In this document: one piece after another, positions 7 to 20,541 of the stretch
How the letters are laid out: each line of letters starts with the position of its first letter
Numbering within the stretch: position 1 is the stretch's first letter
From: Fastidiosibacter lacustris
Lineage (GTDB): Bacteria; Pseudomonadota; Gammaproteobacteria; Francisellales; Francisellaceae
NCBI RefSeq assembly: GCF_003428155.1
Contig: NZ_QLIR01000021.1
Span: 1 to 29,770 of the forward strand
Direction of reading: 5' to 3'
DNA: 29,770 nt
Made by a program: the position numbers and the translations under genes
Notes under the pieces: generated by a model
Database searches by the model: none
What the model was told of the DNA's origin: nothing
Seen by the model: the letters and a program-made list of their open reading frames with translations, nothing else

Positions 7-123
7 TACCTGATGATAATAGCGACTGTGAACCACCTGAATCCATTCCGAACTCAGAAGTGAAAACAGTTAGCGTCGATGATAGTGTGGCATTCGTCAT
101 GTGAAAGTAGAACATCATCAGGT
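7..123 (+). rRNA. rrf: 5S ribosomal RNA; 3' end of an rRNA operon, with the window starting in the 23S-5S spacer
   Basis: Colinear with bacterial 5S: it contains CCGAACTCAGAAGTGAAA and GATGATAGTGTGG. The terminal helix ACCTGATGAT (5') pairs with ATCATCAGGT (3'). A T-rich tract follows at 124-140. Confidence 0.85.
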
Positions 124-162
124 TTTTATTTATGTATTTTACTCATAAAATGTATAAGTGTC

Positions 163-207
163 ATTACCAAGGTAAAGTGTCGGACTAATTACCAAGGGAA
201 ATTGTCG
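163..207. repeat. Two 20-bp direct repeats (ATTACCAAGGTAAAGTGTCG / ATTACCAAGGGAAATTGTCG) separated by 5 bp
   Basis: Read directly: 163-182 versus 188-207, 18/20 identical, period 25 bp. They lie between the 5S gene and the IS256-like remnant. Confidence 0.6.
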
Positions 208-229
208 TGTTAATAGTATGGTCTGAATG

Positions 230-466
230 CTATTGAGTCAACAAACTATTAGTAATAGCCCTGGCTTTCTGAATGCGTAAAGCAATTGTATTCAATTTAG
301 GACCACCAAATATACCAGCCCGGTCAACATATAATGTGTAGAAGTTTAGACTTGACCTGACAGTTGCCTATTTTTCAAACGCGGTTTTTGTCATATAGTC
401 AATCGCCAAAAATAAGGTTTTAAAGACTACATTATCATTCGGAAATGAGCGTTTGTTTTTCATCAC
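230..466 (-). pseudogene. C-terminal remnant of an IS256 (mutator) family transposase with an in-frame stop
   Basis: The minus-strand frame reads VMKNKRSFPNDNVVFKTLFLAIDYMTKTAFEK*ATVRSSLNFYTLYVDRAGIF... This matches the conserved IS256 C-terminus (FPNDxxxxKLLYLAI..ITKKW......ALNxFxIxFxDR). There is no N-terminal part; the RTX gene stop abuts at 524. Confidence 0.4.
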
Positions 467-523
467 CTTTTTTCAGTGATTTCAAATATCCTTATAGCGT
501 ATGCTTTTGAATATCTATCATGC

Positions 524-3500
524 TCATGCCTTTGGTATCCATGAATTGACTAAAATACTTTTTATCTCATCTTTTTGATCTTTATTGAGTAAATCTTCAC
601 CTACACCAGTCTCAACATTAAAGCTTGCCAATGTTTGAATAATCACATCGATTCGTTTTTTATCTAGCATATGATTGCCAACTTCAATCTCATCAATTTT
701 ATGTGCTTCAGATTCAAACCAATTTTCTACAACAACTTGCTTAGGTTTATTTTGATTTGCTAAATTCTTAATCACCAAGTTACTTACTTCACGATAAAAA
801 CGGATATCGTCTGTTTTTAGACCATGAAGCTTTAGAAAGTCGCTGCTATTGTCAGTATCGTGGTTATTAATGATCACATTATTTGAACGCCTTAAATCAA
901 CTTGATAGTAATCAGATCCCTCACCACCCTCCAAGGTATTATTATCGCCATCTGCAATCAGTTTATCATCGCCTGTGTTGCCGTAAAGATGATCATTGCC
1001 ATTTTTAGCGTACAAAGTATCATTTCCTGCACCACCTAGCAATTGATCATGACCATCTTTACCTGCATAAAGAATATCATTTCCCTCATTGCCATTGAGC
1101 ACATTATTTCCTGACTGCCCATAAATAATATCATCTCCATCTCCTGAATCGATATTATCATTGCCTTTACCCGAGTAGATCACATCATTACCATCTCCAC
1201 TATAAACTACATCATCTCCATCACCAGCATCAATCCAACTCATTCCTGTGTTAATCAGGATTTGATCATTTCCAGTTGCAGTGTAAATCGAACTGCCGTT
1301 ACTATGTTCAATCTCAATCACATCATCACCAGCACCTGAATGAATTATGTTTTTACCAAATTGCACTTCAATATAATCAGCTCCATTCCCTGTGGTAATG
1401 GTATTATCTCCAGTGCCTGTATAAATTTCATTGTTACCATGACCGGCTTTAATCACATTATTGCCATCACCCGTATAGATATAATCAACATCTTTGCCAC
1501 CAAAAATTTGATTATCCCCACTGCCTGCTTGAATAGTATTCTTACCACTGCCTGCTTTAATAACATTATTACCATGTCCTGCTTCAATGACATCGTCACC
1601 TGCACCACTAAGGATCAAATTATTTCCATTACCAGTATAAATTCTGTTATTCCCACTACCTGCTTTAATCTCGTTGTTACCGCTTCCTGTATTGATCAAA
1701 TCATCACCATTGGCTGTGGTAATTTTGTTATTGCCCTCACCTGCCTCTACCTGATTATTACCACCCTTGGCATTTATCACATCAGCACCGTCATAAGTTT
1801 CGATATAATCATCTTTCTTGCTGCCAATCCGATTTAAATTATCCTCTACTCTACTAAACTTTGTTTCATCTGTTATCAACTCAGAAATCAGGTATTCATT
1901 ACCCTGACTGTCTATGATTTTATCTACACTTAGGTCATTAAAATAACCTTCAAGCTTTATACTGCTGCGATAAAACTGATCTCCTTGTTGATATAATGTT
2001 GCTCGATTATAGTTATGTGAAATCGCTTTGATATATAAATCATCTTGATCACGTAAAAAATATAGCTCTTCTAACGTAATGTCTTTCAATAAAACTGCAT
2101 CTTCATGATTATTGTTATCTGCAACGATCACATCGTCAAAAGTTATTTTTGATAACACGTAATGATCAACACCAAAACCTCCTGCTAAATAGTCATTATG
2201 TTGTTTCCCATCCAAAACATCCTTGCCATCTGTGCCTTGCAAATATTCAACTCTATTTATCCCTTGAATATAATTGGTCTGTGTTTCCTCATCAAAATAC
2301 ATTAGATAAACACTATTAGAGAACTGCTTTTCTAGACCACCTGCTTCGCTTAGGATAAAATCTTTATGCGGTATCACTTGCCAAATTTCAGCTCCATTAT
2401 TAAATTCGAGGGATATTGGTGGTGCATAACGATTGTCTCTATCATCATAAGGCTTCGTTAAAGCATAGTCTGCTATTGTAATATTGATGTTATGTTTTTC
2501 AGCAACAAATACTAAATCCCGTACATACCATTCTGTATAATGCTGACCACTTTTCGAGTAAGTATGCGAACTCAAGCTTAAATAAATATTATTCAAGTCC
2601 TCTAGCTGAATATCATCTTCAAAAACAAGCGTTACACTATTATCTTCATTTACTGAAAACAGCTTAGGAGTTCGTACAACATCATTCCCACTATTCGTTG
2701 AAAAAACATATCGATCATGACCATAACCACCAACCAAAGTATCATTATCCTCTCCACCAACTAGCGTGTCATTGCCCAATTCTCCGTATAAATGATCATT
2801 TCCTTGACCGCCATTTAAAATATCGTCACCGTCGCCACCCTTTAAATCATCATTACCTGCCTTACCATCTATCAATTCGCTTTCAGCATTGCCAATTAGC
2901 TTATCATTATTATCAGTACCCCTTATTTGTTTTGAATCTAATAGAGAATAGTTCTTATCAATCATCTGTCCATCTGAGAAAGTAAATTGATTGACGCCAG
3001 ATATATGCTGTGGTGTATCCGTATAGAACCGTTTTATCGTTACCTGATCCTGATTGTTGATATGCTTAACAATCAAATCATCTTCATTTTTTATAAAATA
3101 AAGATCTGATAGTCGAATGCCATCAATAAATTCGACTGTATTATCAACAAAGGTTTCATCATTATATAAATACACTGCTTCAATTTCATCAACACCAAAA
3201 GACTGACCAAATACATACCGATTCTTCCCATACCCTCCAGATAGGTAATCATTGCCTTCACCTCCAGTGAGTATATCGTCACCTTCATTTCCATAAAGTT
3301 CATCATTGCCAGCATCACCTATAATATTATCATCTCCCTGACGTCCATAAAGCTTATCATTACCACCTAAGCCTTGGATAACATCATCTGCAATTGTCCC
3401 TGAACTAACATCTGCTTGTTCTGTTCCTATATAATGAATATTTTCAGGTGTAACGTTAAATATAGCATCACCACGCTGCCAGACTGTACCATTAGCAAAT

Positions 3501-6500
3501 TCAATACGTGAAACTTTGCCTAGATTAACATAGTCTGATGCACCTTTATAAAAATTATCTAGTTTGATGCTATCGTATTCATTAAGCGTTAAGATGAGAT
3601 CATATTCAATACGTTTAAGTAAAATATCTTCATGACTGATTCCCACTGTAAACTGTAATATATCCCCAAAAGTATCATTGATACTCCCATCTTCTTCGCT
3701 AAATAAATATGTTTCTATCTCTCTCTCGTTATAACCTAGTTTTAATTTCCCCTCATCAATCCACGCATTTTTTAAGATAATATCATGCCCATCACCTGCA
3801 TCAATATAATTAAAACTTGATAAGCTATTGCTTGTTCCAATGTATCGTTTTGAGTCAATCGGTGTCACCACGTTATCTTGGTTATTTCCAACCACAATAC
3901 TATTGCCTTGGACAGTATAAGCTATATCATCTGTCAATAACATAGCATTACTGATCACCCCATTTTTAAATACATATGAGTCTATTTGCGCAAGCTCAGC
4001 CAATGCTTCCTCATTCATTGACCTAAGTGTTTTTGCTAAAGTCTTATTAGCATCCCAACCTAACTTACCTAGTAAATCCTCTGGTGCCAGTTTAATCAAT
4101 AACAACAAACCCACTGCTTCCACAGCAGTTGCATCAACACGATCAATAAAATATTGATCTATAGCATCAAATCCAAGTGACAACTCCCCTTCATCATTAC
4201 TATTAATTTCAATCATATCTACAAAACGTTGATAGTCATAATTCCTAAAAATAGTATTTTCAACTGAACTTAATAACTTATTATACGCACTATCAAGTAA
4301 GCTATTTTGTCTGGGAAGCCCCGAAAATAGGTCATCTTTTAATACAAGCGGTTTACCACTAGTAAATTTAACTAGATTCCACCAATTACCTATTGAGACT
4401 CTAAGCTCAGAATTCTCTCCCTTCTCAATGATATCGTAACTGACCAGATTGCTAAAATTAAAGGTCTCAAGCACAGCTATTCTTTCAAGCCTTTGCCGTG
4501 TGGTGTCACTCAGATCAAAACTAATTGTTGTCCCTGAGCTTAACTCCAAACCTTCTAATTCAGTAACGACTGAATTAAAGCTTTCTGCTGAGTCTGCCCA
4601 CGCCTTAACAAGCTTTTGATAAAGCATTTTGCGTGTATTGTAGTTTTCTGTTTCAGTAATTGCTTGCACTATCTCTACAATGACAGGGTTCAGCACAGCT
4701 GCTTGATTTAAATCCCTTACTGCGCCAGAGCCTCTAAGGCTAAATGCTAAATTTTGCTCCTCTAACTTGTCTGCAAATTGATAATAGAAATCGTCACTAT
4801 ATTCACGGTAAAAGGAATTGACATTAAAATTTAACGCGCCAATGTCATGCTTCTGACCATTCAAGTCTCGATACGTTGAGCTTTTGACAATTACACCCCC
4901 ATCAGCATTACTACCATTATCTACTACTACATTCAAATCAATACTTTGTACATCTGAGTTAGTTAGAGCAGTTATTTCTCCTTCCTGAACCACGCCATCT
5001 TCGTTTTTATCCTGCCATAATCCTACTTCGCTAAATGCATGATCTTCCACATTAAAAACACCATCATTATTATCATCCAAATCTAATAGCGCATCAAAAC
5101 CATCTGTGGCTTTCTCTCCATTTTGCTTAATCGTATTGTCCCCAAATAACTCCAATCCACTATCAATTTGACCATTGTTATCCAAATCACGCACCAACAG
5201 AGCATCATCACCATTAACCCAGCCTGTGGCATGCTTCACTCCATCACTATCATGATCAAATAAAATATTTCCATGAGCTGCAATGGTCTCAATCCCATCA
5301 CCATCTAAATCTAAAATAAGAGGATCACGGGGAGGGAAAGCGACCTTTGATGCTTCAGTAAAGTCATCGTTAACGAGACTATCAATAAAGTCATTAACTG
5401 CGGAACCCTCTCCCATTAAACACATTAAAATATCACCTTTAAAAGCTTTCATGACGTTTTCTTTCTGGTATTCAGATGAAAATAGAGTTTGATTATAATT
5501 AGCCATTCCTAAAAACAAATTGTTATAATTGCTCAGTTGATCCATAAGCTTTTGTTGAGCATGACCTAAGCGATAATACTCCCGCAGTAAAATCGGATTA
5601 TCACTAATCAAAATACCATGAAAAAGATGTAAATTCTGTAATGCCTCATCTTTAATCTGCTCAATATCAGCACGTACCCGTGAGATTTCTGCTACACCAT
5701 CTTCATATAAACGATTAACAATGCTTATGTCTAATTCATTTGGAATCAAAGCACCATTTTGATCAAACTTTTGATAGAGATAATTATTGATGGTGTGTGC
5801 ATCAAGTAAACCTAAACTCTCATGACCTGGAATAATAATTGTATCCCCTATATTTGTCGCCCAAAAAGCAATTAGGTCTCCTTCACGTGCATAGTTGATA
5901 ATCTTGTTGTTCACCATTTCATGATTGACTGCATAGTTTTCATAAAGTGTAATTTTTATTGGATCAGTAACAGCAACATAGCCTAAACTCTTTTCCCCTG
6001 TAAGCCTATCTTCAACTACCCCTACCTCATAATAAGTACCGCCTTCTTTCTTTCCTTGTAAGATTTCCTGCCCACCATAGCCTTCAAAATTGTATATCAT
6101 GCCCAGCTTTTCACTACCTATATAAGTCGCTTGTGCTTGTGCTATCGTCGCCCCAGCTGAATGGTTGGCTCCTGAAAATATTTCAGGCGTATAAATCTTA
6201 TCAACCATATCAATAAAATTCACACCTGCCATCATATTCTGCGAAATACGATAAGCCAGCATTTCTGCGTCTGAAGCATAATCACCCAATTCACTTGTGC
6301 CTTTATTAACAATCACCATTTCGGTTGTATTAAGTTTTGGAGTCACTGCAATAGCGTAATAGCCAGCTCCCCCAATAGCGGTGTGATTCTCAATCGTATT
6401 ACTCGTTGCCATTAGTGTAAAATTGTCCAACACCTGATTAAACTTATTTGCCGCTAGGGCAATTTGATCACGCAAATCCTGGGGGATACCTTCGTGAAAG

Positions 6501-6649
6501 TTACCTTGATCATCGTAAATATACTTTGATAACTGGCTACCTTTGTTCACCTGGTCATTATCAAAAATATATTGATCTGTTTTTATGTCTTTGGTGTAGA
6601 CAATATTTGCTAATATTGCGCTTTGTTCCGCTGTTAACACGCTATTCAT
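524..6649 (-). CDS. Giant RTX (repeats-in-toxin) calcium-binding protein, 2041 aa, with an N-terminal lipase-like alpha/beta-hydrolase head; probable T1SS substrate
   Basis: Single 6.1-kb ORF with SD AAGGAG about 6 nt upstream of ATG 6649. Aa 1-300 carry VIVNKGTSELGDYASD (class-3 lipase FRGT..D-like strand) and the nucleophile-elbow-like ANHSAGA (Ser164, nt 6158-6160), then REGDLIAF and DAHTINNY. Aa 441-575 carry the DPLILDLDGDGIE...TGWV...DLDNNGQIDSGLELFG module common in large RTX proteins. GGxGxDxUx nonapeptide blocks lie at aa 1089-1145, 1244-1315, 1472-1497 and 1616-1915. Confidence 0.9.
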   Translation of the reverse strand: MNSVLTAEQSAILANIVYTKDIKTDQYIFDNDQVNKGSQLSKYIYDDQGNFHEGIPQDLRDQIALAANKFNQVLDNFTLMATSNTIENHTAIGGAGYYAIAVTPKLNTTEMVIVNKGTSELGDYASDAEMLAYRISQNMMAGVNFIDMVDKIYTPEIFSGANHSAGATIAQAQATYIGSEKLGMIYNFEGYGGQEILQGKKEGGTYYEVGVVEDRLTGEKSLGYVAVTDPIKITLYENYAVNHEMVNNKIINYAREGDLIAFWATNIGDTIIIPGHESLGLLDAHTINNYLYQKFDQNGALIPNELDISIVNRLYEDGVAEISRVRADIEQIKDEALQNLHLFHGILISDNPILLREYYRLGHAQQKLMDQLSNYNNLFLGMANYNQTLFSSEYQKENVMKAFKGDILMCLMGEGSAVNDFIDSLVNDDFTEASKVAFPPRDPLILDLDGDGIETIAAHGNILFDHDSDGVKHATGWVNGDDALLVRDLDNNGQIDSGLELFGDNTIKQNGEKATDGFDALLDLDDNNDGVFNVEDHAFSEVGLWQDKNEDGVVQEGEITALTNSDVQSIDLNVVVDNGSNADGGVIVKSSTYRDLNGQKHDIGALNFNVNSFYREYSDDFYYQFADKLEEQNLAFSLRGSGAVRDLNQAAVLNPVIVEIVQAITETENYNTRKMLYQKLVKAWADSAESFNSVVTELEGLELSSGTTISFDLSDTTRQRLERIAVLETFNFSNLVSYDIIEKGENSELRVSIGNWWNLVKFTSGKPLVLKDDLFSGLPRQNSLLDSAYNKLLSSVENTIFRNYDYQRFVDMIEINSNDEGELSLGFDAIDQYFIDRVDATAVEAVGLLLLIKLAPEDLLGKLGWDANKTLAKTLRSMNEEALAELAQIDSYVFKNGVISNAMLLTDDIAYTVQGNSIVVGNNQDNVVTPIDSKRYIGTSNSLSSFNYIDAGDGHDIILKNAWIDEGKLKLGYNEREIETYLFSEEDGSINDTFGDILQFTVGISHEDILLKRIEYDLILTLNEYDSIKLDNFYKGASDYVNLGKVSRIEFANGTVWQRGDAIFNVTPENIHYIGTEQADVSSGTIADDVIQGLGGNDKLYGRQGDDNIIGDAGNDELYGNEGDDILTGGEGNDYLSGGYGKNRYVFGQSFGVDEIEAVYLYNDETFVDNTVEFIDGIRLSDLYFIKNEDDLIVKHINNQDQVTIKRFYTDTPQHISGVNQFTFSDGQMIDKNYSLLDSKQIRGTDNNDKLIGNAESELIDGKAGNDDLKGGDGDDILNGGQGNDHLYGELGNDTLVGGEDNDTLVGGYGHDRYVFSTNSGNDVVRTPKLFSVNEDNSVTLVFEDDIQLEDLNNIYLSLSSHTYSKSGQHYTEWYVRDLVFVAEKHNINITIADYALTKPYDDRDNRYAPPISLEFNNGAEIWQVIPHKDFILSEAGGLEKQFSNSVYLMYFDEETQTNYIQGINRVEYLQGTDGKDVLDGKQHNDYLAGGFGVDHYVLSKITFDDVIVADNNNHEDAVLLKDITLEELYFLRDQDDLYIKAISHNYNRATLYQQGDQFYRSSIKLEGYFNDLSVDKIIDSQGNEYLISELITDETKFSRVEDNLNRIGSKKDDYIETYDGADVINAKGGNNQVEAGEGNNKITTANGDDLINTGSGNNEIKAGSGNNRIYTGNGNNLILSGAGDDVIEAGHGNNVIKAGSGKNTIQAGSGDNQIFGGKDVDYIYTGDGNNVIKAGHGNNEIYTGTGDNTITTGNGADYIEVQFGKNIIHSGAGDDVIEIEHSNGSSIYTATGNDQILINTGMSWIDAGDGDDVVYSGDGNDVIYSGKGNDNIDSGDGDDIIYGQSGNNVLNGNEGNDILYAGKDGHDQLLGGAGNDTLYAKNGNDHLYGNTGDDKLIADGDNNTLEGGEGSDYYQVDLRRSNNVIINNHDTDNSSDFLKLHGLKTDDIRFYREVSNLVIKNLANQNKPKQVVVENWFESEAHKIDEIEVGNHMLDKKRIDVIIQTLASFNVETGVGEDLLNKDQKDEIKSILVNSWIPKA
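905..1804 (-). repeat. About 33 tandem 27-nt (nonapeptide) coding repeats forming the long beta-roll of the RTX protein (aa 1616-1915)
   Basis: Periodic xGxG(N/D)(N/D)xIx units are read directly from the translation (GGNNQVEAGEGNNKITTANGDDLINTGSGNNEIKAGSGNNRIYTGNGNN...). The repetitive opposite strand produces the shadow ORF at 1340-1837. Confidence 0.85.
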
Positions 6650-7724
6650 GGCTTATCTCCTTATCGTATAGTGTTACAATTTGGTTATATAAATCAGTTT
6701 GTGTTAAAAATTGAGCTTCACTTGAATCATACCTTCTGGCAACAATCCAAATCTCCTCCACCTTGCCTGATAAAGTCTTATATTTAACCGTGTGCATAGG
6801 CAATAACTTAATATATTTAGCCACATCCAAAGGAGAGTGAATGCTTTGAGCTATATTGGCATACTCTGGTATATTTGGCTTACCATAACAAAACTTCATA
6901 ATCCCATTCATAGGGCAGTCTGAAATCATTAACACACCCCATGTATACTTATTCATTTCATAACCCTTTTGTTGAATAAAAAAACTCGTGTCCATCTTTT
7001 GTTGCTTTAACCAAGATTCATCTGGGATATCAACTAATCTAATTTCCATATTAAAGCTAAATAGCTTTAACGAGAGTAAATAATTATTGAGCTTATAGAT
7101 TTGACTCATCAAGGTGAGCAAGTTCTGTGGGATTTTTTGTATTTCAATTATTGCAGTAAATGTTAACTCTAGTGCGTTATGGTATTCTCTTATCCATTCT
7201 TGCAAATGCAATGCTTTGCTACGGAAGATATATTCCGTTTCTTTAGCTAAATATCTCTCGTTTTCTGGTAAGTCCTTATCATAAATCGACGTTGCTAATG
7301 TCCTTGCGGCAAAATTATCACTCACTGACTTAAAATAAGGTTCTAGCATTTTAGCTACTTCGATTGATGTCCTAACTAATAAATAATTACTCGCAAACGA
7401 CCCTTTGCCTGTTAAATCCGTAATTACCATTAACTGTTGATCTGGCATTGACTCTGGGATTACAGTAAAAGTATAACTTCTACTTTGTCGATTATAATTG
7501 CCACTTATCACTTTAAAGTTCTCACCATACTTGGCTTTAAGCTGATGAGCTACTTTATCCATCATATCGGAAGAAACCCGACTACCTAAGCCATGGGAAA
7601 TGTAGTAAAAAACGCCTATTAAGATTACTATCGTGATTGAGATGGTTACTATTATAAAGCCCAGCTTTGTTATTCTTGTCTCTTCCTCCAGTTTTACTTG
7701 TCCAATATTCCTTTTCTTATCCAT
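6642..7724 (-). CDS. Hypothetical single-pass membrane-anchored protein (360 aa), first gene of the RTX operon
   Basis: ATG at 7724. A basic N-terminus is followed by one hydrophobic helix (LGFIIVTISITIVILIGVFYYI, aa 21-42), then about 320 aa with no motif I recognise. Its stop TAG (6642-6644) overlaps the RTX start (ATGAATAG, 8-nt overlap), and the RTX SD lies inside its last codons. Confidence 0.7.
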   Translation of the reverse strand: MDKKRNIGQVKLEEETRITKLGFIIVTISITIVILIGVFYYISHGLGSRVSSDMMDKVAHQLKAKYGENFKVISGNYNRQSRSYTFTVIPESMPDQQLMVITDLTGKGSFASNYLLVRTSIEVAKMLEPYFKSVSDNFAARTLATSIYDKDLPENERYLAKETEYIFRSKALHLQEWIREYHNALELTFTAIIEIQKIPQNLLTLMSQIYKLNNYLLSLKLFSFNMEIRLVDIPDESWLKQQKMDTSFFIQQKGYEMNKYTWGVLMISDCPMNGIMKFCYGKPNIPEYANIAQSIHSPLDVAKYIKLLPMHTVKYKTLSGKVEEIWIVARRYDSSEAQFLTQTDLYNQIVTLYDKEISHE

Positions 7725-8235
7725 CTTTCACTTACCTCTAAAACCGCAATTTTTCAATCATACTACGAACATAATTGAAGCCTTCATGCCATTTCAATTT
7801 GGCAATTCCCATTTTTACTTAGGTAACACCACCAAAAAGTCGTTTAAAAACAAGCCTTTAAAATCAAGCTTTGAGTATAATTGATCCCTTATCGGAGAAT
7901 AAAAAAACAAAAACTAGCAGTGTCATCTTGGTTTAAGCGTAGACGATTATTGTAAGAGGTCAAATTTTAATCTTAGACTTTCTCACAGTGTTTTAAAGAG
8001 TGAATAAAAATAAAAACGTAGATTTGGACAATGACTGATATGCTAAAAGGCACTAGTTTGCTTTTAGTTCAAAACACCGATATTCAAATCAAACCTTCTA
8101 TGACGAAAACTGTATTATAGATCTTAACCAAATAGCTTAAAGCACTCCCTAATCCCAAGACCATCGAACAGTCTAAATCGGGATTTGGGATTACGGATTT
8201 TGTCAACAATATTGGAGGTTTTAAATGTGAGTGTA

Positions 8236-9639
8236 TTATGAATAATTTCGAGTAAGAACATAAGGAAAAGCAAGTGCAATCACTATTCCTGTAACAAGTA
8301 ATAAATCAAAGTTAAAGGTGGACATCGTTACATCTGAGGTTGGAATAAATCCTACTATAATTGCAACCAAGCAGCTAATAAATCCTAATGATGACATTAC
8401 AATGGTTCCTTTGACACCGCCATAAATTTGATATTGCCCAAGTTTGATTGGATTAGTGACCCTTAATTTAATTGCCGCAGCAAACATACCGATATAACCT
8501 AATACAGCAAGTTGTGCCGTCAGTGCACTTAAAAACCAATAAGCTGAATTGACCGATGGCATAAGAAGATAACTCAAACAAAATATAGAGAATATCAGAG
8601 CTTGCAAAATAAGCACTTTACTGGGTGCGTTATAAGTATTAGTTTGTGCAAGCCTTTTTGAAATAAGTCCATCTTCTGCTGCTATGGTAAAAGCTCGTGA
8701 TAAACCCATAATCCAAGCTGAAACAGTAGTAAATGCTCCTAATACCAAGGTTAATGCGATGATACTAGACATCCACGGCATATTGAATTTAGCAAAAAAA
8801 TAGCTAAATGATGCCATAAGTCCTGTCACGATATCTACATGCCCAGTGTTATTGCTATTGACTGTAAAGATTGCAACGTTAGACAAAACTAGAGATAGTA
8901 AAATCACTACGCTAGAAATTAATAGTGCTTTGGGAAAGTTTTTTTGTGGATTGTTGACATTACCTGCATGAATAGAACTCATCTCTAGACCAAATAAACT
9001 AAACATTACGGTTAAAAACAGACCCCAACTGTTAATATTGGCAAAGCTTGGTAGTACATCTGAAATAGCCGATGGCTTCAACATGGGTTGACCAGACAAT
9101 ATCCAAAAAAGTGCTAAGCCAATAATGAGTAGCATCGGCATTAAGGTACCAACAATCGCGCCAATGACACTGATTGTGCTTGAGGTTTTTATTCCAAATA
9201 GATTAACAATCGTAGCTAACCAAAACATGCACAGACTCATGCTGATTATATACCAAGGATTACTGACCAAAAAATCTGGATTCATGCCAAACCAAGGTGC
9301 AATAATATAAGCAATGATTCCTGCAAAAAATCCACAGATAGATGGGAACCATACCAAATTATAAATCCATTGCAGCCACAACACGACAAATCCTATTTTG
9401 GCACCAAAGGCTTCTTTTGTCCAAAGGTAGATTCCACCATTTTTCGAATATCCTGTTGCCATTTGTGCAGTTAATAATGCACATGGAATTAAAAATACAA
9501 TAGCGGCAAAAATGTAAAAACTCACCACAACCCACCCAGCTTGTGCTGTAATAGAGATATTACGCAGGCTATCCACGGCAATGATATTGATCATGACTAA
9601 GCGTAGCAAGGTTAAGGATTGAGTTGATGAAATTTGCAT
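8236..9639 (-). CDS. APC-superfamily amino-acid permease (GadC/YjeM-like), about 12 TM
   Basis: 467-aa highly hydrophobic ORF. The N-terminus LTLLRLVMINIIAVDSLRNI and GGIYLWTKEAFGAKIGF are typical of glutamate:GABA-antiporter-like APC transporters. Confidence 0.75.
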   Translation of the reverse strand: MQISSTQSLTLLRLVMINIIAVDSLRNISITAQAGWVVVSFYIFAAIVFLIPCALLTAQMATGYSKNGGIYLWTKEAFGAKIGFVVLWLQWIYNLVWFPSICGFFAGIIAYIIAPWFGMNPDFLVSNPWYIISMSLCMFWLATIVNLFGIKTSSTISVIGAIVGTLMPMLLIIGLALFWILSGQPMLKPSAISDVLPSFANINSWGLFLTVMFSLFGLEMSSIHAGNVNNPQKNFPKALLISSVVILLSLVLSNVAIFTVNSNNTGHVDIVTGLMASFSYFFAKFNMPWMSSIIALTLVLGAFTTVSAWIMGLSRAFTIAAEDGLISKRLAQTNTYNAPSKVLILQALIFSIFCLSYLLMPSVNSAYWFLSALTAQLAVLGYIGMFAAAIKLRVTNPIKLGQYQIYGGVKGTIVMSSLGFISCLVAIIVGFIPTSDVTMSTFNFDLLLVTGIVIALAFPYVLTRNYS

Positions 9640-10082
9640 AATTTGTCTGATGGTTGCTTTTTAACGACAATTAGTATATACCCATCACAAACCATTTTAC
9701 AGCCTTTCTCGCTTTGCATTTGTGCTTTAAATTTTACTTATTGCGTGCTTTAACTTTATATGTTTCGAACTGTTCCTTTAGAGTTGCTAACTGTGCTTAT
9801 GTACATTTAGTGATATAGAACTAGATGAAATATACGTTACATTTGTTTCAATATAATCTGAGAGTATTTTTGTATTCTCCTAAGCAATATGCGCAATACT
9901 AAAGCTCGCCTGGCAATAATCACAGGGCTTAGTATGTTTGTGCTGTCACTTACCTTTCCTTGCTGCTTATATTTGGCATACTTACCACAGAAGCACAACT
10001 TTTATATTTTTTGTCTAGACATCTGGAATACATCGATGTATCGTTACAAGACTACATTGATAATCGTAGCTTGAACTTAAAA

Positions 10083-10349
10083 ATGGAAAAAAATTGGCAA
10101 AGCTTAATTAGAGTAATAAGAATTCTGAAATCTGATAATGAACTTAGTTTATTATTGGATTTTCTTTTTACGTTGGAAGAAAAACGTCAACTCAGTAATC
10201 GTTATGCCCTTGCCCAACAAATGGTCTTAGCACAAAAGTCACAACGTGAAATCGCTAAAGATCTGGGTGTTAGTATCAGCACAGTAACGCGTTGCTCTAA
10301 TGCACTAAAGTTATTACCTGATGAGATAAAACAAAAATTCAAACTATAA
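10083..10349 (+). CDS. trpR: Trp-repressor family HTH regulator (88 aa)
   Basis: Colinear with E. coli TrpR: LLDFLFTLEEKRQLSNRYALAQQMV..SQREIAKDLGVSISTVTRCSNALKLLPDEIKQ versus [57 protein letters not shown]. I place the start at the internal ATG 10083 of ORF 9960-10349; the upstream part has no homology. It could equally be a YerC/YecD-type paralogue. Confidence 0.6.
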   Translation: MEKNWQSLIRVIRILKSDNELSLLLDFLFTLEEKRQLSNRYALAQQMVLAQKSQREIAKDLGVSISTVTRCSNALKLLPDEIKQKFKL

Positions 10350-10982: not shown

Positions 10983-12086
10983 TCAAATAAGTTTTTTAAC
11001 TTCATCAACCAATTTTTCCACTGCATCGAGTTTCGCTACACCCTTGGCGTGACTAGACATATTTTCCAATTTAGAGCGATTTATGTCCATTGCACGAATA
11101 AAAGCCGCGAGCTTTTGTGCATTAAAATGCTCCTCACGCATGCAAATAGCAGCCTCCGCTTGCACTAGGAATTGTGCATTATGATATTGATGATCATCAA
11201 CAGCTTCTGCAAAAGGTACAAAAAAAGCAGGGACGCCTACACTTGCAATTTCCGACACCGTTAATGCTCCAGCACGACATACAATAATATCTGCCCATTG
11301 ATAAGCTTGCGCCATATCGTTAATAAAAGGTTCTACTTTGAGCTCACATTTATAATCGATATTAAGTGCTTGATAAGTACTCATCGTCTCAGCAAAACCT
11401 TTTTCTCCTGTCTGATGCCAAATGTTAACACAGGCTTCACGTGGCAAAGCTTTAATAAATTTAGGCACCACATCATTGAGTACTTTAGCACCTTGACTAC
11501 CGCCTAAGACAAGAACGTTCAGAATATGTTTATAAAAGTCACGTGACTGATTATGCAAATTACGTATTTCACTGCGTATTGGATTGCCGATAACCTCAAC
11601 AATTGACTTTGTTTTAAAACCGCTAGTAGGAAATGCACACAACACTTTTTTAGCAAATTTTGCCAACATCTTGTTGGTCATACCAGGATTGGCGTTTTGT
11701 TCATGAATAATCAATGGAATATTAAGTAGTTTTGCCGCAATCCCACCAGGTCCAGAAGCATAACCACCAAAGCCTAAGACACAATTTGTCTTGCGCCTTC
11801 TTAGAATTATCATTGCACGTAATACAGCTAAGGATAATTGAAAAGAAAACAATAATTTTTTCTTTAGACCTTTGTTGCGTACTCCACCAATTTTTAAAAA
11901 ATCTAGTGGATATTGGTTGGCAACTATTTTTTTTTCTAAACCATATTGGGTCCCAAACCAGAAAATATTGGCGCCTTGTTCTGACAAATGCTTTGCCACT
12001 GCAAGTGCTGGAAAAATATGTCCTCCAGTTCCCCCTGCCATCACCACGATATTCTTACCACTTACGACATCTGTTTGCTGCTGCAT
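10983..12086 (-). CDS. murG: UDP-N-acetylglucosamine--N-acetylmuramyl-(pentapeptide) pyrophosphoryl-undecaprenol GlcNAc transferase
   Basis: MAGGTGGHIFPALAVA, GFGGYASGPGG, IHEQNA, LGGSQGA and CRAGALTVSEI are all canonical MurG motifs. Confidence 0.9.
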   Translation of the reverse strand: MQQQTDVVSGKNIVVMAGGTGGHIFPALAVAKHLSEQGANIFWFGTQYGLEKKIVANQYPLDFLKIGGVRNKGLKKKLLFSFQLSLAVLRAMIILRRRKTNCVLGFGGYASGPGGIAAKLLNIPLIIHEQNANPGMTNKMLAKFAKKVLCAFPTSGFKTKSIVEVIGNPIRSEIRNLHNQSRDFYKHILNVLVLGGSQGAKVLNDVVPKFIKALPREACVNIWHQTGEKGFAETMSTYQALNIDYKCELKVEPFINDMAQAYQWADIIVCRAGALTVSEIASVGVPAFFVPFAEAVDDHQYHNAQFLVQAEAAICMREEHFNAQKLAAFIRAMDINRSKLENMSSHAKGVAKLDAVEKLVDEVKKLI

Positions 12087-12337
12087 CCACTTAAACCCTG
12101 CTTTATAAAAAATAGCTATGAAAATAATTGCTCTTTACTCTTTGTTTCAATCAAAGAATACTACAGTTTGTGTAGCCAAGTATAAATAGTTGATCCTTAT
12201 TGTACCTGATAGCTTTCAAGGCACCAATGATTTCTTAGCTATCGCAAAATAACTTTACTGCTATTTTGGCTAAATCTTTAATGGCATTACATGACTCAAA
12301 AGGTTAAGATTTTTTGTAAAAAGTACGGAGTATTTAG

Positions 12338-19194: not shown

Positions 19195-19534
19195 GTCTTA
19201 CAATTTGTAGTGGCGTTGACCTAGCTAATCTCTCTACTTAAATTAGTGATAATTTCTCATGCATCTCATTTTGCTTAGATTTGCAAAATGGGGATCTTTA
19301 TTTATTATTGAGCTATTATTTTGGGCATCTATTTTATTCATTGTAGAGTTTATTCTCAGGCCTTTCGTATACGTTCTAATGTAGTTAACGTTAATTCGAT
19401 ATAAATGCTTATAATACAAACAGCACATTTGGCTTTTTAGGCTGGAAGTAATACACAATTAACCTACATAATAGATTTGTCATAAAACTCCATATTGAAC
19501 GATGCCTTTGTATGTTCAATTTGGTTAATCTTTT

Positions 19535-19860
19535 TTAAGTCCTTTTTTCATGTTTTTTTAAACTCATATAATCAGTTGTAACACTAACCCACCCACGTTC
19601 AAAATCTTTATCACCAAACTAATTTATCAATTAAGCCTTGCGTTAAATCCAAAAAACCATCCTATTGTCGATTTTGACCGACTTGCTATCATAATCAAAT
19701 TTAATATCTTTCAAACAAAGATTTGGATGCATCTAGAATTTGACTCAACTTTGATGTCTCAAGAAAAAAATAATGCATCAATCAGTATTTTGTAAATTCT
19801 TCTTTGTGTACAGAGATAAGCTTTACAATAATCAAAAAGTTGAATATTATTTTTGCATTC
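19535..19860 (-). pseudogene. Heavily decayed IS982-family-like transposase remnant (multiple frames, internal deletions)
   Basis: Minus-strand fragments lie in the order expected for IS982 transposases: LFDYCKAY (cf. VDDFCKAF), KILIDALFFS, YDSKSVKIDNR (cf. IDSxPIxVCHNxR), IGWFFGFNARL (cf. GWFYGFKLHL) and FGDKDF (cf. GDKGY). Motif-level evidence only. Confidence 0.35.
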
Positions 19861-20095
19861 AAACTTAAGCCTTTAAATTAGATGTTAAATTTTAATGGCT
19901 ATTGGTGCTAAAAAGAAATTATCATACAGACCTTAGGATTTTACCTATTATATTCATTGAGTGAGCTATAAGCATATAGGAGAACTTAGAAGCATAGCAG
20001 CTGAAGTAAAGTTTGTATAATTTTTATATCCATTTAATGAGCTTATAAGAGAGTCTAACTTTGTACATAAAAACCAAAATTAACGGAAATAGATT

Positions 20096-20541
20096 ATGAT
20101 AATATGGTTACGAAACGTTGTAAAAATAATATTTTTTATCTCTTTTTATCTTTCTACTTACGGTCATTCGGCTGAAAAGCAAGATATAGCAAACCTTCTA
20201 AAACACCAAAAATCAATTAGTAGCATTAATATTGATCACTTTGATGATATTGAGCAACTTCACGTCCCCTTGAATGATTATGAAAGCTATTGTTCAAACA
20301 AAAAAATAGTCTTATTTGTAAACAATTAAGCAAAATTGTCCCGTTTTATTCAATATCTATTAATGAATTAAATAATTTGAATTTTGAAAGTTCAGATCCA
20401 AGAGGTTTATATAATTTTATATGTGGGGAAAAGAGTTCTGAAGATAAAATAAGTAAAATTTGTCAAGAGATAGATAAAAGAAGCCGCGCTTTTGAGACCG
20501 CAGAAAATTTTGACAAACTATATTTGCACAATAAAATTTAA
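20096..20541 (+). pseudogene. Small secreted protein (about 148 aa if repaired) split by a frameshift in an A7 run
   Basis: ORF 20096-20329 begins with a signal-peptide-like MIIWLRNVVKIIFFISFYLSTYG/HSAEK. ORF 20290-20541 continues in the -1 frame. The two frames meet at A7 (20300-20306), and one extra A gives ...YCSNKKNSLICKQLSKIV... Confidence 0.45.

What the first reader, a model, noticed from the sequence alone, without database searches (positions are those of the whole stretch)
524..7724. Translationally coupled pair: unknown membrane-anchored protein plus a 2041-aa RTX protein with an enzyme-like head (candidate secreted lipase toxin with a dedicated partner)
Seen in the sequence:
- The two minus-strand ORFs overlap by 8 nt (ATGAATAG).
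- The RTX ribosome-binding site (AAGGAG) lies inside the last codons of the upstream gene, so they are almost certainly co-translated.

The RTX protein combines a lipase-like N-terminal domain with a very large beta-roll scaffold. That is the layout of T1SS-secreted family I.3 lipases, but about four times larger. A fixed 360-aa, single-TM, extracytoplasmic-facing partner encoded immediately upstream is not part of the canonical rtxC/A/B/D layout.

It could be any of:
- an immunity protein, analogous to the periplasmic Tli immunity proteins of lipase effectors;
- a foldase or secretion chaperone (I did not see the Lif motif RxxFDY(F/C)L(S/T)A);
- a retention or anchor factor.

No HlyB/HlyD/TolC or HlyC-type acyltransferase gene is present in the 29.8 kb. 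This is the most system-like uncharacterised unit in the window.
Basis: partly seen in the sequence, partly recalled or inferred. Interest (0 to 1): 0.75.

Follow-up and report, generated by a model that had tools for sequence, protein, structure and literature searches.

The report
Self-cleaving RTX lipase toxin with immunity-like partner
A freshwater bacterium encodes a giant calcium-binding secreted protein that probably cuts off its own lipase-like head outside the cell; the membrane-anchored protein encoded just upstream is most likely its antidote, because the same head-plus-partner pair also turns up next to a different bacterial weapon, the type VI secretion system.

Summary
In this Fastidiosibacter lacustris contig, ORF 6642-7724(-) (360 aa) and ORF 524-6649(-) (2041 aa) overlap by ATGAATAG, with AAGGAG 7 nt upstream of the second ATG.

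RTX residues 443-612 are a FrpC-type self-processing module (E=1.7e-40 to PDB 6SJW), starting exactly after an Asp442-Pro443 bond. The protein is therefore a FrpC/ApxIVA-type "clip-and-link" RTX whose 442-aa head should be released by Ca2+ outside the cell. It is not an oversized family I.3 lipase.

The head is a divergent class-3-lipase-like hydrolase:
- Ser164, Asp258 and His285 are conserved in all aligned homologues.
- Relatives pass the Pfam Lipase_3 and DUF6792 cut-offs.
- The window copy has NHSAG instead of GHSLG.

The partner belongs to a rare family with no curated annotation (33 representatives in 1.84 billion). Members are membrane-anchored or lipoproteins. A head gene, or further partner copies and then a head, follows in all 13 distinct relatives' loci with downstream sequence. 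These include SPM-RTX genes, two of them beside HlyB/HlyD, and RTX-less heads beside VgrG in T6SS loci. Tandem partner copies, orphan head fragments and a swapped central cassette point to an effector-immunity pair (confidence about 0.6).

The closest precedents are FrpD-FrpC and Smlt3025-Smlt3024. I rate it a new variant of a known kind.

The parts
6642..7724 (-). Partner gene (360 aa): predicted N-in single-pass membrane protein with an extracytoplasmic alpha/beta ectodomain; candidate immunity protein
   Evidence: ORF and translation. Rare family: 33 representatives at E<=1e-3 in 1.84e9 proteins. No curated family; only sub-threshold YfjL_N/DUF3139 hits on the N-terminal part. AF2 with a 34-sequence MSA gives pLDDT 87.3, pTM 0.80. 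The only PDB fold hit is DUF5037 4gl6_A, E=1.3e-5.
7602..7664 (-). Transmembrane anchor of the partner (aa 21-41)
   Evidence: Kyte-Doolittle maximum 2.86 at aa 21. The N-terminal 20 residues carry 6 K/R. AF2 models aa 8-45 as a helix. Homologues carry either such an anchor or a lipobox signal peptide.
6950..7380 (-). Hypervariable central cassette of the partner (aa ~116-258)
   Evidence: This is the only stretch of the partner gene, which is otherwise about 99% identical to 'Ca. Nebulobacter' L001, that blastn cannot align. Protein identity here is 36% versus 100% in both flanks, yet 80% to the more distant L002.
6888..6917 (-). Cys270...Cys279 pair in the partner (candidate disulfide)
   Evidence: These are the only two Cys in the protein. 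They are invariant in close relatives and conserved as C-x(n)-C in the signal-peptide-type homologues.
6642..6662 (-). Coupling junction: AAGGAG (6657-6662), 7-nt spacer, ATG (6647-6649), with the partner's TAG at 6642-6644
   Evidence: Sequence read directly. The tight junction is conserved in all related loci.
524..6649 (-). RTX gene (2041 aa): head, SPM, conserved middle region, four RTX repeat blocks, C-terminal secretion region
5324..6649 (-). Head domain (aa 1-442): divergent class-3-lipase-like alpha/beta hydrolase plus a region of unassigned fold
   Evidence: Homologous heads hit Pfam Lipase_3 (23.7 bits, cut-off 22) and DUF6792 (27.7 bits, cut-off 25); L002's head hits Lipase_3 at E=1.6e-3. 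The window copy has no hit itself. Ser164, Asp258 and His285 are conserved in all aligned heads.
6152..6166 (-). Nucleophile elbow N-H-S-A-G (aa 162-166; Ser164), where six other homologous loci have G-H-S-L-G and L017 has G-F-S-L-G
   Evidence: Alignments. The motif is identical in the independent assembly L001.
6514..6556 (-). Variable patch in the head (aa 32-46) that changes together with the partner's central cassette
   Evidence: 20 of the 26 window-vs-L001 differences in the head fall in these 43 nt. The patch is the same type in window and L002, which also share the cassette type.
5321..5326 (-). Predicted scissile Asp442-Pro443 bond
   Evidence: The FrpC SPM alignment starts at this Pro. 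'PPRD|PLILDLDGDGIET' corresponds to FrpC 'D414|PLALDLDGDGIET' (PMC7078468). D|P is conserved in L002, L006, L009, L011 and L017.
4814..5323 (-). Self-processing module (SPM), aa 443-612
   Evidence: phmmer E=1.7e-40 to PDB 6SJW (FrpC SPM) over its whole length. The two Trp (FrpC W451, W519) and the acidic Ca-binding loops are conserved in the alignment (residues named in PMC7078468). The near-identical L001 protein has a precomputed PF26745 (SPM) hit.
3320..4813 (-). Conserved middle region (aa 613-1110), function unknown
   Evidence: No Pfam family. Conserved in the SPM-RTX relatives L001, L002, L005/6, L009 and L011 ('mid').
830..3319 (-). Four RTX nonapeptide blocks (aa 1111-1146, 1270-1326, 1636-1779, 1808-1940) interspersed with HCBP_related domains
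   Evidence: Pfam HemolysinCabind over 17 stretches; HCBP_related best stretch at aa 1191-1233. Regex blocks.
524..829 (-). C-terminal region after the last repeat block (candidate T1SS secretion signal)
   Evidence: NCBIfam RTX_toxin model positions 692-916 of 930 align to aa 1808-2032. Inference from the general rule that RTX secretion signals are C-terminal (PMC3034196).
7768..7797 (-). Promoter-like site upstream of the partner (TTGAAA-18-TATGTT) in the 511-bp intergenic region
   Evidence: Consensus scan only, 9 of 12 matches. Weak evidence.

Best explanation
The pair is an effector-immunity module carried on a self-cleaving RTX vehicle.

Proposed steps (all inferred unless marked):
1. 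The 2041-aa protein is exported unfolded by an unlinked HlyB/HlyD/TolC-type T1SS. This is inferred from RTX family rules and from relatives whose T1SS genes sit directly upstream.
2. Outside the cell, Ca2+ folds the beta-rolls and the FrpC-type self-processing module, which breaks the Asp442-Pro443 bond. Homology and the scissile motif are shown here; cleavage itself is inferred.
3. This frees the 442-aa head with a reactive C-terminal aspartyl anhydride. The anhydride can hydrolyse or cross-link to a nearby lysine ('clip-and-link').
4. The head is a class-3-lipase-like serine hydrolase (Ser164, Asp258, His285) that attacks membrane lipids of a target cell.
5. The upstream 360-aa protein is anchored in the inner membrane with its ectodomain in the periplasm. 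It binds and neutralises the head, protecting the producer and its kin.
6. Its central cassette (aa 116-258) and head residues 32-46 probably form the specificity interface.
7. Translational coupling, with the partner first, ensures the partner is made whenever the toxin is.
For: SPM:
- E=1.7e-40 to FrpC SPM (6SJW), beginning at the Pro after Asp442, with Trp and Ca-loop residues conserved (mechanism in PMC7078468).

Head is a lipase-like hydrolase:
- GA-passing Lipase_3 and DUF6792 hits in homologous heads.
- Ser/Asp/His are conserved in all aligned heads.

The module is independent of the vehicle:
- A profile of RTX heads hits the RTX-less 560-aa proteins of L007 and L018 at E about 1e-14 to 1e-18.
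- These lie between a partner-family gene and VgrG. In L007 the surrounding T6SS genes are TssE, DUF4280 (PAAR-like) and TssF.
- In L013 and L017 the partner genes directly follow bona fide HlyB (TIGR01846, 910 bits) and HlyD (TIGR01843, 352 bits). In L017 they precede a 2188-aa head-SPM-RTX gene.

Synteny:
- In all 13 distinct relatives' loci with sequence downstream (counting L005/6 and L013/14 once each), the partner is followed by a head-family gene, or by another partner copy and then a head or the contig end.

Hallmarks of polymorphic toxin/immunity loci:
- Two or three tandem partner copies (L003, L007, L009, L011, L012, L013, L017).
- Orphan head fragments (L007 9485-9925, L011 8673-8960, L013 8302-8493, L010).

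Extracytoplasmic placement:
- TM anchor or lipobox in family members.
- Conserved Cys pair.

Cassette swap:
- In DNA that is otherwise about 99% identical to 'Ca. Nebulobacter' (ANI 99.38%, PMC9837558), the partner's aa 116-258 are replaced (36% identity), and the head's differences cluster in aa 32-46.

Precedent:
- Smlt3024/Smlt3025 and the FrpC/FrpD immunity hypothesis (PMC6759196).
Against: - No binding, toxicity or rescue has been tested.
- No route is known by which a T1SS-released head would reach a target's periplasm, which is where an inner-membrane-anchored immunity protein could meet it.
- The window's head has NHSAG instead of GxSxG and gives no family hit itself, so it may be weakly active or inactive.
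- The partner's predicted fold matches no known Tli, FrpD or Smlt3025 structure. The only PDB hit is DUF5037, of unknown function.
- I could not predict a structure for the head, so its fold is inferred from sequence profiles only.
- The covariation between cassette and head patch rests on three sequences.
- A T1SS was not shown in this genome, because only this contig was available.
- In 'Ca. Nebulobacter' the RTX gene carries a 1-nt frameshift, so the system may be decaying in this lineage.
Confidence: 0.6

Rival explanations
1. FrpD-like tether. The partner is a high-affinity receptor that captures the clipped head and keeps it on the producer. The head's anhydride would then cross-link the bacterium to a host (ciliate or amoeba) or substrate surface, giving adhesion rather than intoxication.
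For: - The layout matches frpD-frpC: an upstream extracytoplasmic protein plus an SPM-RTX whose N-terminal fragment it binds with Kd about 0.2 nM (PMC5233953, PMC5472700).
- The SPM is conserved.
- The lineage includes a ciliate endosymbiont (PMC9837558).
- Some family members are lipoproteins that could reach the outer membrane.
Against: - The window's partner has a 21-residue TM anchor rather than a lipobox. In a Gram-negative cell it should stay in the inner membrane, out of reach of an extracellular head.
- The same partner family accompanies SPM-less, RTX-less heads next to VgrG, where tethering a clipped fragment has no meaning.
- The partner shows no sequence or Foldseek similarity to FrpD, although FrpD structures are in the PDB.
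- Tandem copies and orphan head fragments are not expected of a receptor.
Confidence: 0.12
2. Steric chaperone or secretion accessory. The partner is a Lif-like foldase or holdase needed for the head to fold or to be exported.
For: - Lif foldases are also N-terminally anchored in the inner membrane, face the periplasm, and are encoded in an operon with their lipase (established knowledge).
- Translational coupling suggests co-production.
Against: - T1SS and T6SS substrates do not fold in the producer's periplasm, so a periplasm-facing foldase would never meet its client.
- The predicted fold is mixed alpha/beta with several beta-strands.
- I did not see the Lif motif RxxFDY(F/C)L(S/T)A when reading the translation.
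- A foldase does not explain a hypervariable, cassette-swapped central region, multi-copy arrays or orphan toxin fragments.
Confidence: 0.06
3. Cis-protection during a two-step T1SS. As in LapA-type adhesins, the N-terminal head lingers at the periplasmic side of the secretion channel, and the partner masks it there until release. The target is eukaryotic, not bacterial.
For: - N-terminal retention of T1SS substrates in the periplasm is established for LapA-type RTX adhesins (for example the LapD/LapG system, PMC11264772).
- This would explain why an inner-membrane-anchored protein is paired with a T1SS cargo.
- The lineage is associated with eukaryotic hosts (PMC9837558).
Against: - I did not identify a LapG/LapD system or a retention-module motif (not systematically searched).
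- The SPM would then release the RTX body rather than the head.
- The idea is still an immunity-type function, so it overlaps with the best explanation rather than replacing it.
Confidence: 0.12
4. Decaying relic. The pair is a pseudo-enzyme remnant with no current function in F. lacustris.
For: - The nucleophile elbow is degenerate (NHSAG) only in this lineage.
- The RTX gene is frameshifted in the near-identical 'Ca. Nebulobacter'.
- The locus is flanked by a transposase-like remnant.
- The genome is reported to hold 129 pseudogenes (PMC9837558).
Against: - Both ORFs are intact over 7.2 kb in the window.
- The catalytic Ser, Asp and His are retained.
- SPM key residues are intact.
- The coupling junction is intact.
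Confidence: 0.1

Closest known systems
FrpC/FrpA (Neisseria meningitidis) and ApxIVA (Actinobacillus pleuropneumoniae) 'clip-and-link' RTX proteins, with the frpD-frpC operon
   Same: - Order of domains: N-terminal head, Asp-Pro bond, SPM, RTX repeats.
- SPM homology at E=1.7e-40.
- An upstream gene for an extracytoplasmic protein; in Neisseria it binds the clipped head (PMC5233953).
- T1SS genes are not adjacent to the RTX gene in the window.
   Different: - The head here is lipase-like, whereas FrpC 1-414 has no known homology (PMC3034196).
- The partner is TM-anchored, not a lipoprotein.
- The partner shows no detectable sequence or fold similarity to FrpD.
- This pair also exists without SPM or RTX in T6SS loci.
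Smlt3024/Smlt3025 (Stenotrophomonas maltophilia X-T4SS effector and immunity; Bayer-Santos et al. 2019, PMC6759196)
   Same: - A toxic domain shared between a contact-dependent secretion system and the N-terminal heads of many RTX proteins (and one VgrG).
- The immunity gene lies immediately upstream.
- The effector acts in the periplasm.
[quoted passage not shown]
   Different: - A different effector domain: unknown function there, lipase-like here.
- Smlt3025 has an FrpD-like fold, unlike this partner.
- The alternative vehicle is a T4SS there and a T6SS here.
- The Fastidiosibacter pair has not been tested experimentally.
T6SS Tle-Tli phospholipase effector-immunity pairs (for example Tle2/TseL-TsiV1, which has a class-3 lipase domain; recalled from Russell et al. 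2013, not re-read here)
   Same: - A GxSxG serine-hydrolase effector paired with an adjacent periplasmic or lipoprotein immunity protein.
- Multi-copy immunity arrays.
- Relatives L007 and L018 sit beside VgrG.
   Different: - The window copy is delivered on an SPM-RTX T1SS vehicle, with no T6SS gene nearby.
- The partner matches no solved immunity structure.
- I could not test membership of Tle1-Tle4 because no models for them were available.
Family I.3 lipases (Serratia LipA, Pseudomonas sp. MIS38 PML; PDB 2z8x)
   Same: - A lipase domain N-terminal to an RTX beta-roll, exported by a T1SS.
- According to PMC11878206, DUF6792 and Mbeg1-like (the Pfam families the relatives' heads hit) share a permuted, reversed beta1-beta2 arrangement with lipase 2z8x, listed there as a Family I.3 lipase.
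   Different: - No self-processing module and no release of the lipase.
- No partner gene.
- About 600 aa rather than 2041 aa.
- No sequence hit between the head and any PDB chain.
MARTX toxins
   Same: Large RTX carriers that release enzymatic effector domains by autoprocessing (PMC3034196).
   Different: - MARTX uses an InsP6-activated cysteine protease domain inside eukaryotic cytosol, not a Ca2+-activated Asp-Pro module outside the cell.
- The repeats are of a different type.
- There is no immunity partner.

Membership tests
RTX protein / T1SS substrate | Tandem Gly/Asp-rich nonapeptide Ca2+-binding repeats | tested here: met
   Pfam HemolysinCabind E=5.7e-69 over 17 stretches. Four repeat blocks found by regex.
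RTX protein / T1SS substrate | Uncleaved C-terminal secretion signal | tested here: inconclusive
   The C-terminal 225 aa align to the C-terminal part of the NCBIfam RTX_toxin model. No signal-specific test is available.
RTX protein / T1SS substrate | Cognate ABC transporter, membrane-fusion protein and TolC | tested here: not met
   None in the 29.8-kb window. The rest of the genome could not be searched. HlyB and HlyD lie directly upstream of the module in relatives L013 and L017.
FrpC-type self-processing ('clip-and-link') RTX | SPM domain homologous to FrpC 415-591 | tested here: met
   E=1.7e-40 and 142.6 bits to 6SJW, covering 172 of 179 residues.
FrpC-type self-processing ('clip-and-link') RTX | Asp-Pro bond at the N-terminal edge of the SPM | tested here: met
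   D442-P443 in 'PPRD|PLILDLDGDGIET' aligns with FrpC D414|P415. Conserved in five related SPM-RTX genes.
FrpC-type self-processing ('clip-and-link') RTX | Stabilising Trp pair and acidic Ca2+-binding loops (FrpC W451/W519; D419-E426, D462-E474, D499-D511, D521-E532; PMC7078468) | tested here: met
   'TGWV', 'LWQD', 'DLDGDGIE', 'DLDNNGQIDSGLE', 'DDNNDGVFNVED' and 'DKNEDGVVQEGE' align to the FrpC positions.
FrpC-type self-processing ('clip-and-link') RTX | Ca2+-dependent cleavage and Asp-Lys cross-linking | not testable with these tools
   Needs purified protein, Ca2+, and SDS-PAGE or mass spectrometry.
Class-3 lipase-like alpha/beta hydrolase (Pfam Lipase_3 / DUF6792 / Mbeg1-like) | Profile match above the curated cut-off | tested here: not met
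   The window head has no hit at E<=0.1. Homologous heads pass: L006 Lipase_3 23.7 bits (cut-off 22) and DUF6792 27.7 bits (cut-off 25); L007 DUF6792 25.4 bits (cut-off 25).
Class-3 lipase-like alpha/beta hydrolase (Pfam Lipase_3 / DUF6792 / Mbeg1-like) | G-x-S-x-G nucleophile elbow | tested here: not met
   The window and L001 have N-H-S-A-G. L002, L003, L006, L007, L009, L011 and L018 have G-H-S-L-G, and L017 has G-F-S-L-G.
Class-3 lipase-like alpha/beta hydrolase (Pfam Lipase_3 / DUF6792 / Mbeg1-like) | Ser-Asp-His triad in that order | tested here: met
   S164, D258 (the 'GD/ND/AD' motif) and H285 are conserved in every aligned head. The assignment rests on alignment, not structure.
Class-3 lipase-like alpha/beta hydrolase (Pfam Lipase_3 / DUF6792 / Mbeg1-like) | Alpha/beta hydrolase fold | not tested
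Effector-immunity pair (Tle/Tli-like) | Adjacent, co-oriented effector and immunity genes conserved across genomes | tested here: met
   All 13 distinct relatives' loci with downstream sequence show it.
Effector-immunity pair (Tle/Tli-like) | Immunity protein located in the compartment where the toxin acts (periplasm) | tested here: inconclusive
   TM anchor or lipobox, and a conserved Cys pair. This is a prediction only.
Effector-immunity pair (Tle/Tli-like) | Association with a contact-dependent delivery system | tested here: inconclusive
   Not in the window. Met in relatives L007 (TssE, VgrG, DUF4280, TssF) and L018 (VgrG).
Effector-immunity pair (Tle/Tli-like) | Toxicity of the effector and specific neutralisation by the partner | not testable with these tools
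   Needs expression and rescue experiments.
FrpD family | Sequence or fold similarity to FrpD (PDB 5EDF) | tested here: not met
FrpD family | Type II (lipoprotein) signal peptide | tested here: not met
   The window protein has a long TM helix and no Cys before residue 270. Some distant family members do have lipoboxes.
Lif lipase-specific foldase | RxxFDY(F/C)L(S/T)A motif | tested here: not met
   I did not see the motif when reading the translation.

The most novel reading that the evidence does not exclude
SPM-containing 'clip-and-link' RTX proteins would be a general T1SS vehicle for polymorphic, immunity-paired toxins. The same lipase-plus-immunity cassette is exchanged between T6SS cargo and SPM-RTX fusions. 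The Ca2+-triggered Asp-Pro cleavage would serve to release the toxin head at or on the target cell, and possibly to anchor it there covalently through the anhydride. This pair would then be an independent natural test of the unproven idea that FrpC/FrpD is an antibacterial effector-immunity pair. It would also reveal a new immunity fold whose specificity lies in a swappable central cassette.
Probability: 0.4. Interest if true: 0.75.

Novelty: new variant of a known kind. Interest (0 to 1): 0.58.

Why it matters
The biological role of clip-and-link RTX proteins (FrpC, FrpA, ApxIVA) is still unresolved. Adhesion is the usual proposal (PMC7078468, PMC5233953); one paper suggested an antibacterial effector-immunity role instead (PMC6759196).

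This locus supplies a second, independent head/partner family on the same SPM-RTX chassis. Its head has a recognisable enzymatic type, and its partner/head module also occurs as a T6SS-linked pair. That makes the effector-immunity reading of SPM-RTX loci directly testable, through periplasmic toxicity and rescue, Ca2+-triggered release, and cross-immunity between cassette types. F. lacustris is cultivable, which makes the tests practical.

It also defines an unannotated extracytoplasmic protein family with a confident predicted fold that lacks close solved relatives. Finally, it marks one of the few strongly divergent spots between a free-living bacterium and a ciliate endosymbiont whose genomes are otherwise 99.4% identical.

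Tried and rejected
**Searches that found nothing**
- Pfam, NCBIfam and PDB sequence searches with the window head and partner gave nothing significant.
- The search for homologous proteins with the head alone and with a 3-head alignment returned nothing, not even the protein itself. The word-indexed search therefore missed it.
- A metagenome scan with the head alignment found nothing, and one with P0016 re-found only the known contig.
- tblastn of the partner and the head against plasmids gave no match.
- The literature holds nothing on this pair, and DUF3139 and DUF6792 have no assigned function.

**Structure work**
- The first AF2 run on the partner, with three sequences, was poor (pLDDT 51). 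I superseded it with a 34-sequence run (pLDDT 87.3).

**Other dead ends**
- The search for related loci rejected the broad alignments A3 and A5 as too divergent.

**Readings considered and rejected**
- Pore-forming RTX haemolysin: there is no hydrophobic domain (maximum Kyte-Doolittle 1.56) and no HlyC gene.
- Lif-type foldase and FrpD homologue: see the membership table.
- The antisense ORF 1340-1837(+) as a gene: no family hit, and it lies inside the RTX repeats.

Full report
**1. Observation**

The window is a whole 29,770-bp contig of Fastidiosibacter lacustris. Two minus-strand ORFs, 6642-7724 (360 aa) and 524-6649 (2041 aa), are present as described.

The junction reads AAGGAG-ataagcc-ATGAATAG. 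The second gene's ATG (6649-6647) overlaps the first gene's TAG (6644-6642) by 8 nt, and the Shine-Dalgarno sequence (6657-6662) lies inside the first gene.

Pfam confirms the RTX repeats (HemolysinCabind E=5.7e-69, 17 stretches) and HCBP_related domains. The partner has a single strongly hydrophobic helix at aa 21-41 behind a K/R-rich N-terminus, and only two cysteines.

None of the window's other ORFs of 100 aa or more encodes HlyB, HlyD, TolC or HlyC. They encode:
- an amino-acid permease, TrpR, two GNATs, MurG, PurD, GatA/GatB;
- a RimK-like ligase, a sigma-70 factor, GGDEF and GGDEF-EAL proteins;
- a split upp gene, a Trp/Tyr permease and a transposase fragment;
- two ORFs with no Pfam hit (27959-28402 and the antisense 1340-1837), and one antisense ORF (11732-12094, within murG) that was not scanned.

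**2.

Residues 443-612 match the solved self-processing module (SPM) of N. meningitidis FrpC over its full length (6SJW, E=1.7e-40). The match begins exactly at Pro443, preceded by Asp442: 'PPRD|PLILDLDGDGIET' versus FrpC 'D414|PLALDLDGDGIET'.

The two Trp residues and the four acidic Ca2+ loops that Kuban et al. describe (PMC7078468) are conserved in the alignment. In FrpC and ApxIVA this module folds on binding Ca2+ and breaks the Asp-Pro bond. It leaves a C-terminal aspartyl anhydride on the N-terminal fragment, which hydrolyses or cross-links to a lysine (PMC7078468, PMC3034196).

The protein is therefore a FrpC/ApxIVA-type 'clip-and-link' RTX. Its 442-aa head is predicted to be released outside the cell. 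It is not a scaled-up family I.3 lipase, in which the lipase stays attached to its beta-roll. The near-identical protein of 'Ca. Nebulobacter' has a precomputed hit to Pfam PF26745 (SPM).

There is no hydrophobic pore-forming segment; the maximum Kyte-Doolittle value over 19 residues is 1.56.

**3. The head**

The window's head has no significant Pfam, NCBIfam or PDB sequence hit. Its homologues do:
- The L006 head passes the curated cut-offs of Lipase_3 (23.7 bits; cut-off 22) and DUF6792 (27.7; cut-off 25).
- The L007 head passes DUF6792 (25.4; cut-off 25).
- Mbeg1-like, PGAP1 and other alpha/beta-hydrolase families appear below threshold.

DUF6792 was recently placed in the alpha/beta-hydrolase clan and has no known function (PMC11878206).

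Ser164, Asp258 (in a 'GD/ND/AD' motif like the class-3 'D-x-V-P') and His285 are conserved in every aligned head. The elbow is GHSLG in seven relatives and GFSLG in L017. It is NHSAG in the window and in the independently assembled L001, so the substitution is real. Activity of this allele is uncertain.

I could not predict the head's structure.

**4. The partner**

A word-indexed search found only three proteins. An exhaustive profile search of 1.84 billion cluster representatives found 33 at E<=1e-3. This is a rare family with no curated model. The only family hits are sub-threshold YfjL_N (8 of 34 members) and DUF3139 (3 of 34), both over the TM helix plus the first small domain.

Members start either with a long TM helix or with a lipobox signal peptide (LLACGSS, LVGCGE and similar). 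A few carry about 130 extra N-terminal residues with further hydrophobic helices.

AlphaFold2 results depended on the alignment:
- With three sequences the model was poor (pLDDT 51).
- With the 34-sequence alignment it was confident (pLDDT 87.3, pTM 0.80). It shows a TM helix followed by a mixed alpha/beta ectodomain.

**5. Gene neighbourhoods**

| Locus | Source | Partner copies | Following gene(s) | Delivery context |
|---|---|---|---|---|
| L001 | 'Ca. Nebulobacter yamunensis' | 1 | head-SPM-RTX, 8-nt overlap | none adjacent |
| L002, L005/6 | metagenomes | 1 | head-SPM-RTX, 8-nt overlap | none adjacent |
| L009 | Cysteiniphilum marinum | 2 | 1476-aa head-SPM-RTX, 8-nt overlap | none adjacent |
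| L011 | Cysteiniphilum litorale | 3 in tandem | orphan head fragment, then 1628-aa head-SPM-RTX, 8-nt overlap | none adjacent |
| L010 | Cysteiniphilum sp. JM-1 | fragment | head fragments | none adjacent |
| L003 | Logan assembly | 2 | head gene (cut by contig end) | none adjacent |
| L004 | Logan assembly | 1 (signal-peptide type) | weak head-like gene (cut) | none adjacent |
| L017 | MAG GCA_036281725.1 | 2 | 2188-aa head-SPM-RTX | HlyB-like ABC + HlyD directly upstream |
| L013/14 | metagenomes | 2 | 63-aa head fragment between the copies; contig ends | HlyB (TIGR01846, 910 bits) + HlyD (TIGR01843, 352 bits) directly upstream |
| L007 | metagenome | 2 | 146-aa head fragment; 560-aa head-only protein | T6SS: TssE, VgrG, DUF4280 (PAAR-like), TssF |
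| L018 | Logan assembly | 1 | 560-aa head-only protein | VgrG N-terminus follows |
| L012 | MAG GCA_019825885.1 | 2 (lipoprotein type) | contig ends | not visible |
| L008 | metagenome | 1 | contig ends just after the gene | not visible |

Sources.

So in all 13 distinct relatives' loci with downstream sequence (L005/6 and L013/14 counted once each), a partner gene is followed by a head gene, or by further partner copies and then a head or the contig end. In the one reverse check, the three genome hits to the head all had partner genes upstream.

**6. Signs of a specificity interface**

F. lacustris and 'Ca. Nebulobacter' share 99.38% ANI (PMC9837558), and the locus is about 99% identical at the DNA level. 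There are three exceptions:
- The partner's central 430 nt (window 6950-7380, aa ~116-258) cannot be aligned by blastn. Protein identity there is 36%, against 100% on both sides.
- 20 of the 26 differences in the 1.3-kb head region fall within 43 nt (window 6514-6556, head aa 32-46). There is also a 6-nt 'AQ' insertion beside the active-site motif.
- There are repeat-block indels and a 1-nt frameshift in the RTX part of L001.

The window's cassette is 80% identical to that of the otherwise more distant L002, and those two also share the head patch 'V[ND]KGSQLSKYIYD'. L001's cassette is closest to the 'extra' upstream copies in the L011 (Cysteiniphilum litorale) and L003 (unassigned, Cysteiniphilum-like) arrays (53-58% identity).

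This mosaic pattern suggests recombinational exchange of a recognition cassette that co-varies with a surface patch of the head. The inference rests on few sequences.

**7. Most likely mechanism (confidence about 0.6)**

The pair is an effector-immunity module on a self-cleaving RTX vehicle. A T1SS encoded elsewhere exports the protein. Ca2+ triggers Asp442-Pro443 cleavage and releases the lipase-like head, possibly with covalent attachment through the anhydride. The periplasm-facing partner neutralises any head that reaches the periplasm of the producer or its kin.

What is shown:
- SPM homology and the scissile motif;
- hydrolase family membership of the head lineage, and triad conservation;
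- conserved coupling of the two genes;
- independence of the module from the secretion vehicle (T1SS and T6SS contexts);
- tandem arrays, orphan fragments and the cassette swap.

What is inferred:
- export, cleavage and lipolytic toxicity;
- binding and neutralisation;
- topology of the partner.

The main gap is how a T1SS-released head would enter a target's periplasm.

Rivals:
- An FrpD-like tether or adhesion role (0.12). It is disfavoured by the TM anchor and by the T6SS occurrences.
- Cis-protection during a two-step T1SS aimed at eukaryotic targets (0.12). This is really a variant of immunity.
- A relic or pseudo-enzyme (0.10).
- A Lif-like foldase (0.06). It is incompatible with T1SS/T6SS routes and with the hypervariability.

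**8. Comparison with known systems**

By architecture the RTX protein is a member of the FrpC/ApxIVA clip-and-link class; all sequence-level defining features were met. The partner is positionally analogous to FrpD but is not a homologue, since sequence and Foldseek tests were negative.

The idea that RTX heads plus upstream periplasmic proteins are effector-immunity pairs has been published. The T4SS effector Smlt3024 is homologous to the heads of 221 RTX proteins and to one VgrG C-terminus. Its upstream immunity protein Smlt3025 has an FrpD-like fold, and the authors hypothesise that FrpC/FrpD is a T1SS effector-immunity pair (PMC6759196).

The present case is a parallel instance with a different, enzymatically recognisable head and a different partner fold, and with T6SS as the alternative vehicle. 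RTX bacteriocins exist, but their mechanism is unknown (PMC3034196).

**9. Verdict**

- The feature is real.
- Novelty: new variant of a known kind.
- Interest: 0.58. A specialist would not be astonished, but the locus offers a tractable, independent test of an open question about what clip-and-link RTX proteins are for. It also defines a new candidate immunity family.

Noticed in passing
window 9-123 (+): A complete 5S rRNA gene (Rfam RF00001, 79.2 bits) sits at the very start of the contig. The contig therefore probably begins at the end of an rRNA operon, which would be an assembly break.
   Followed up: yes
window ~370-470 (-) and 150-337; L001 8537-10075: Downstream of the RTX stop there is a short reading frame, '...KRSFPNDNVVFKTLFLAIDYMTKTAFEK*', that looks like the C-terminal remnant of a transposase (from memory, IS256-like; not tested). 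In 'Ca. Nebulobacter' the matching region is interrupted by a 512-aa HTH-containing ORF that looks like a transposase. Window 150-298 and 297-337 match L001 at 10007-10155 and 9131-9171.
   Followed up: partly
window 23471-24156 (+): The uracil phosphoribosyltransferase gene (upp) is split into two overlapping ORFs. UPRTase profile positions 3-50 and 70-206 fall in different frames. It is probably a frameshifted pseudogene or a sequencing error.
   Followed up: partly
L001 at the position matching window 3321; L001 ORFs 1588-4914, 4887-5372, 5326-8379: In the ciliate endosymbiont 'Ca. Nebulobacter yamunensis' the orthologous RTX gene is split into three ORFs. It carries a 1-nt insertion relative to the window plus a 426-nt extra repeat block. 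This could be incipient pseudogenisation in the symbiont or an assembly error at 46x coverage.
   Followed up: partly
P0003 (L002 278-1732), P0007 (L003 941-1954), P0010: Some partner-family proteins carry an N-terminal extension of about 130 aa with further hydrophobic helices ahead of the usual anchor. P0007 also lacks most of the central cassette through an internal deletion. Significance unknown.
   Followed up: no
window 29017-29331 (-): A 104-aa ORF has only the HTH_Tnp_4 domain of a DDE transposase, near the other contig end. It is probably another IS fragment.
   Followed up: no
window 19195-20666: A 1.5-kb stretch with the lowest G+C in the window (0.30) has no ORF of 100 aa or more. 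It holds only short ORFs of 41-83 aa. The 77-aa one (20096-20329) begins with a hydrophobic stretch that looks like a signal peptide. It lies upstream of the sigma-70 gene.
   Followed up: no
partner aa 31-101 (window ~7422-7634): The 34-sequence partner profile gives a weak hit (E=0.04) to cystatin B in the PDB over the first ectodomain module (a helix plus beta-strands). This could hint at a cystatin/PepSY-like inhibitor-type fold, but it is not significant.
   Followed up: no
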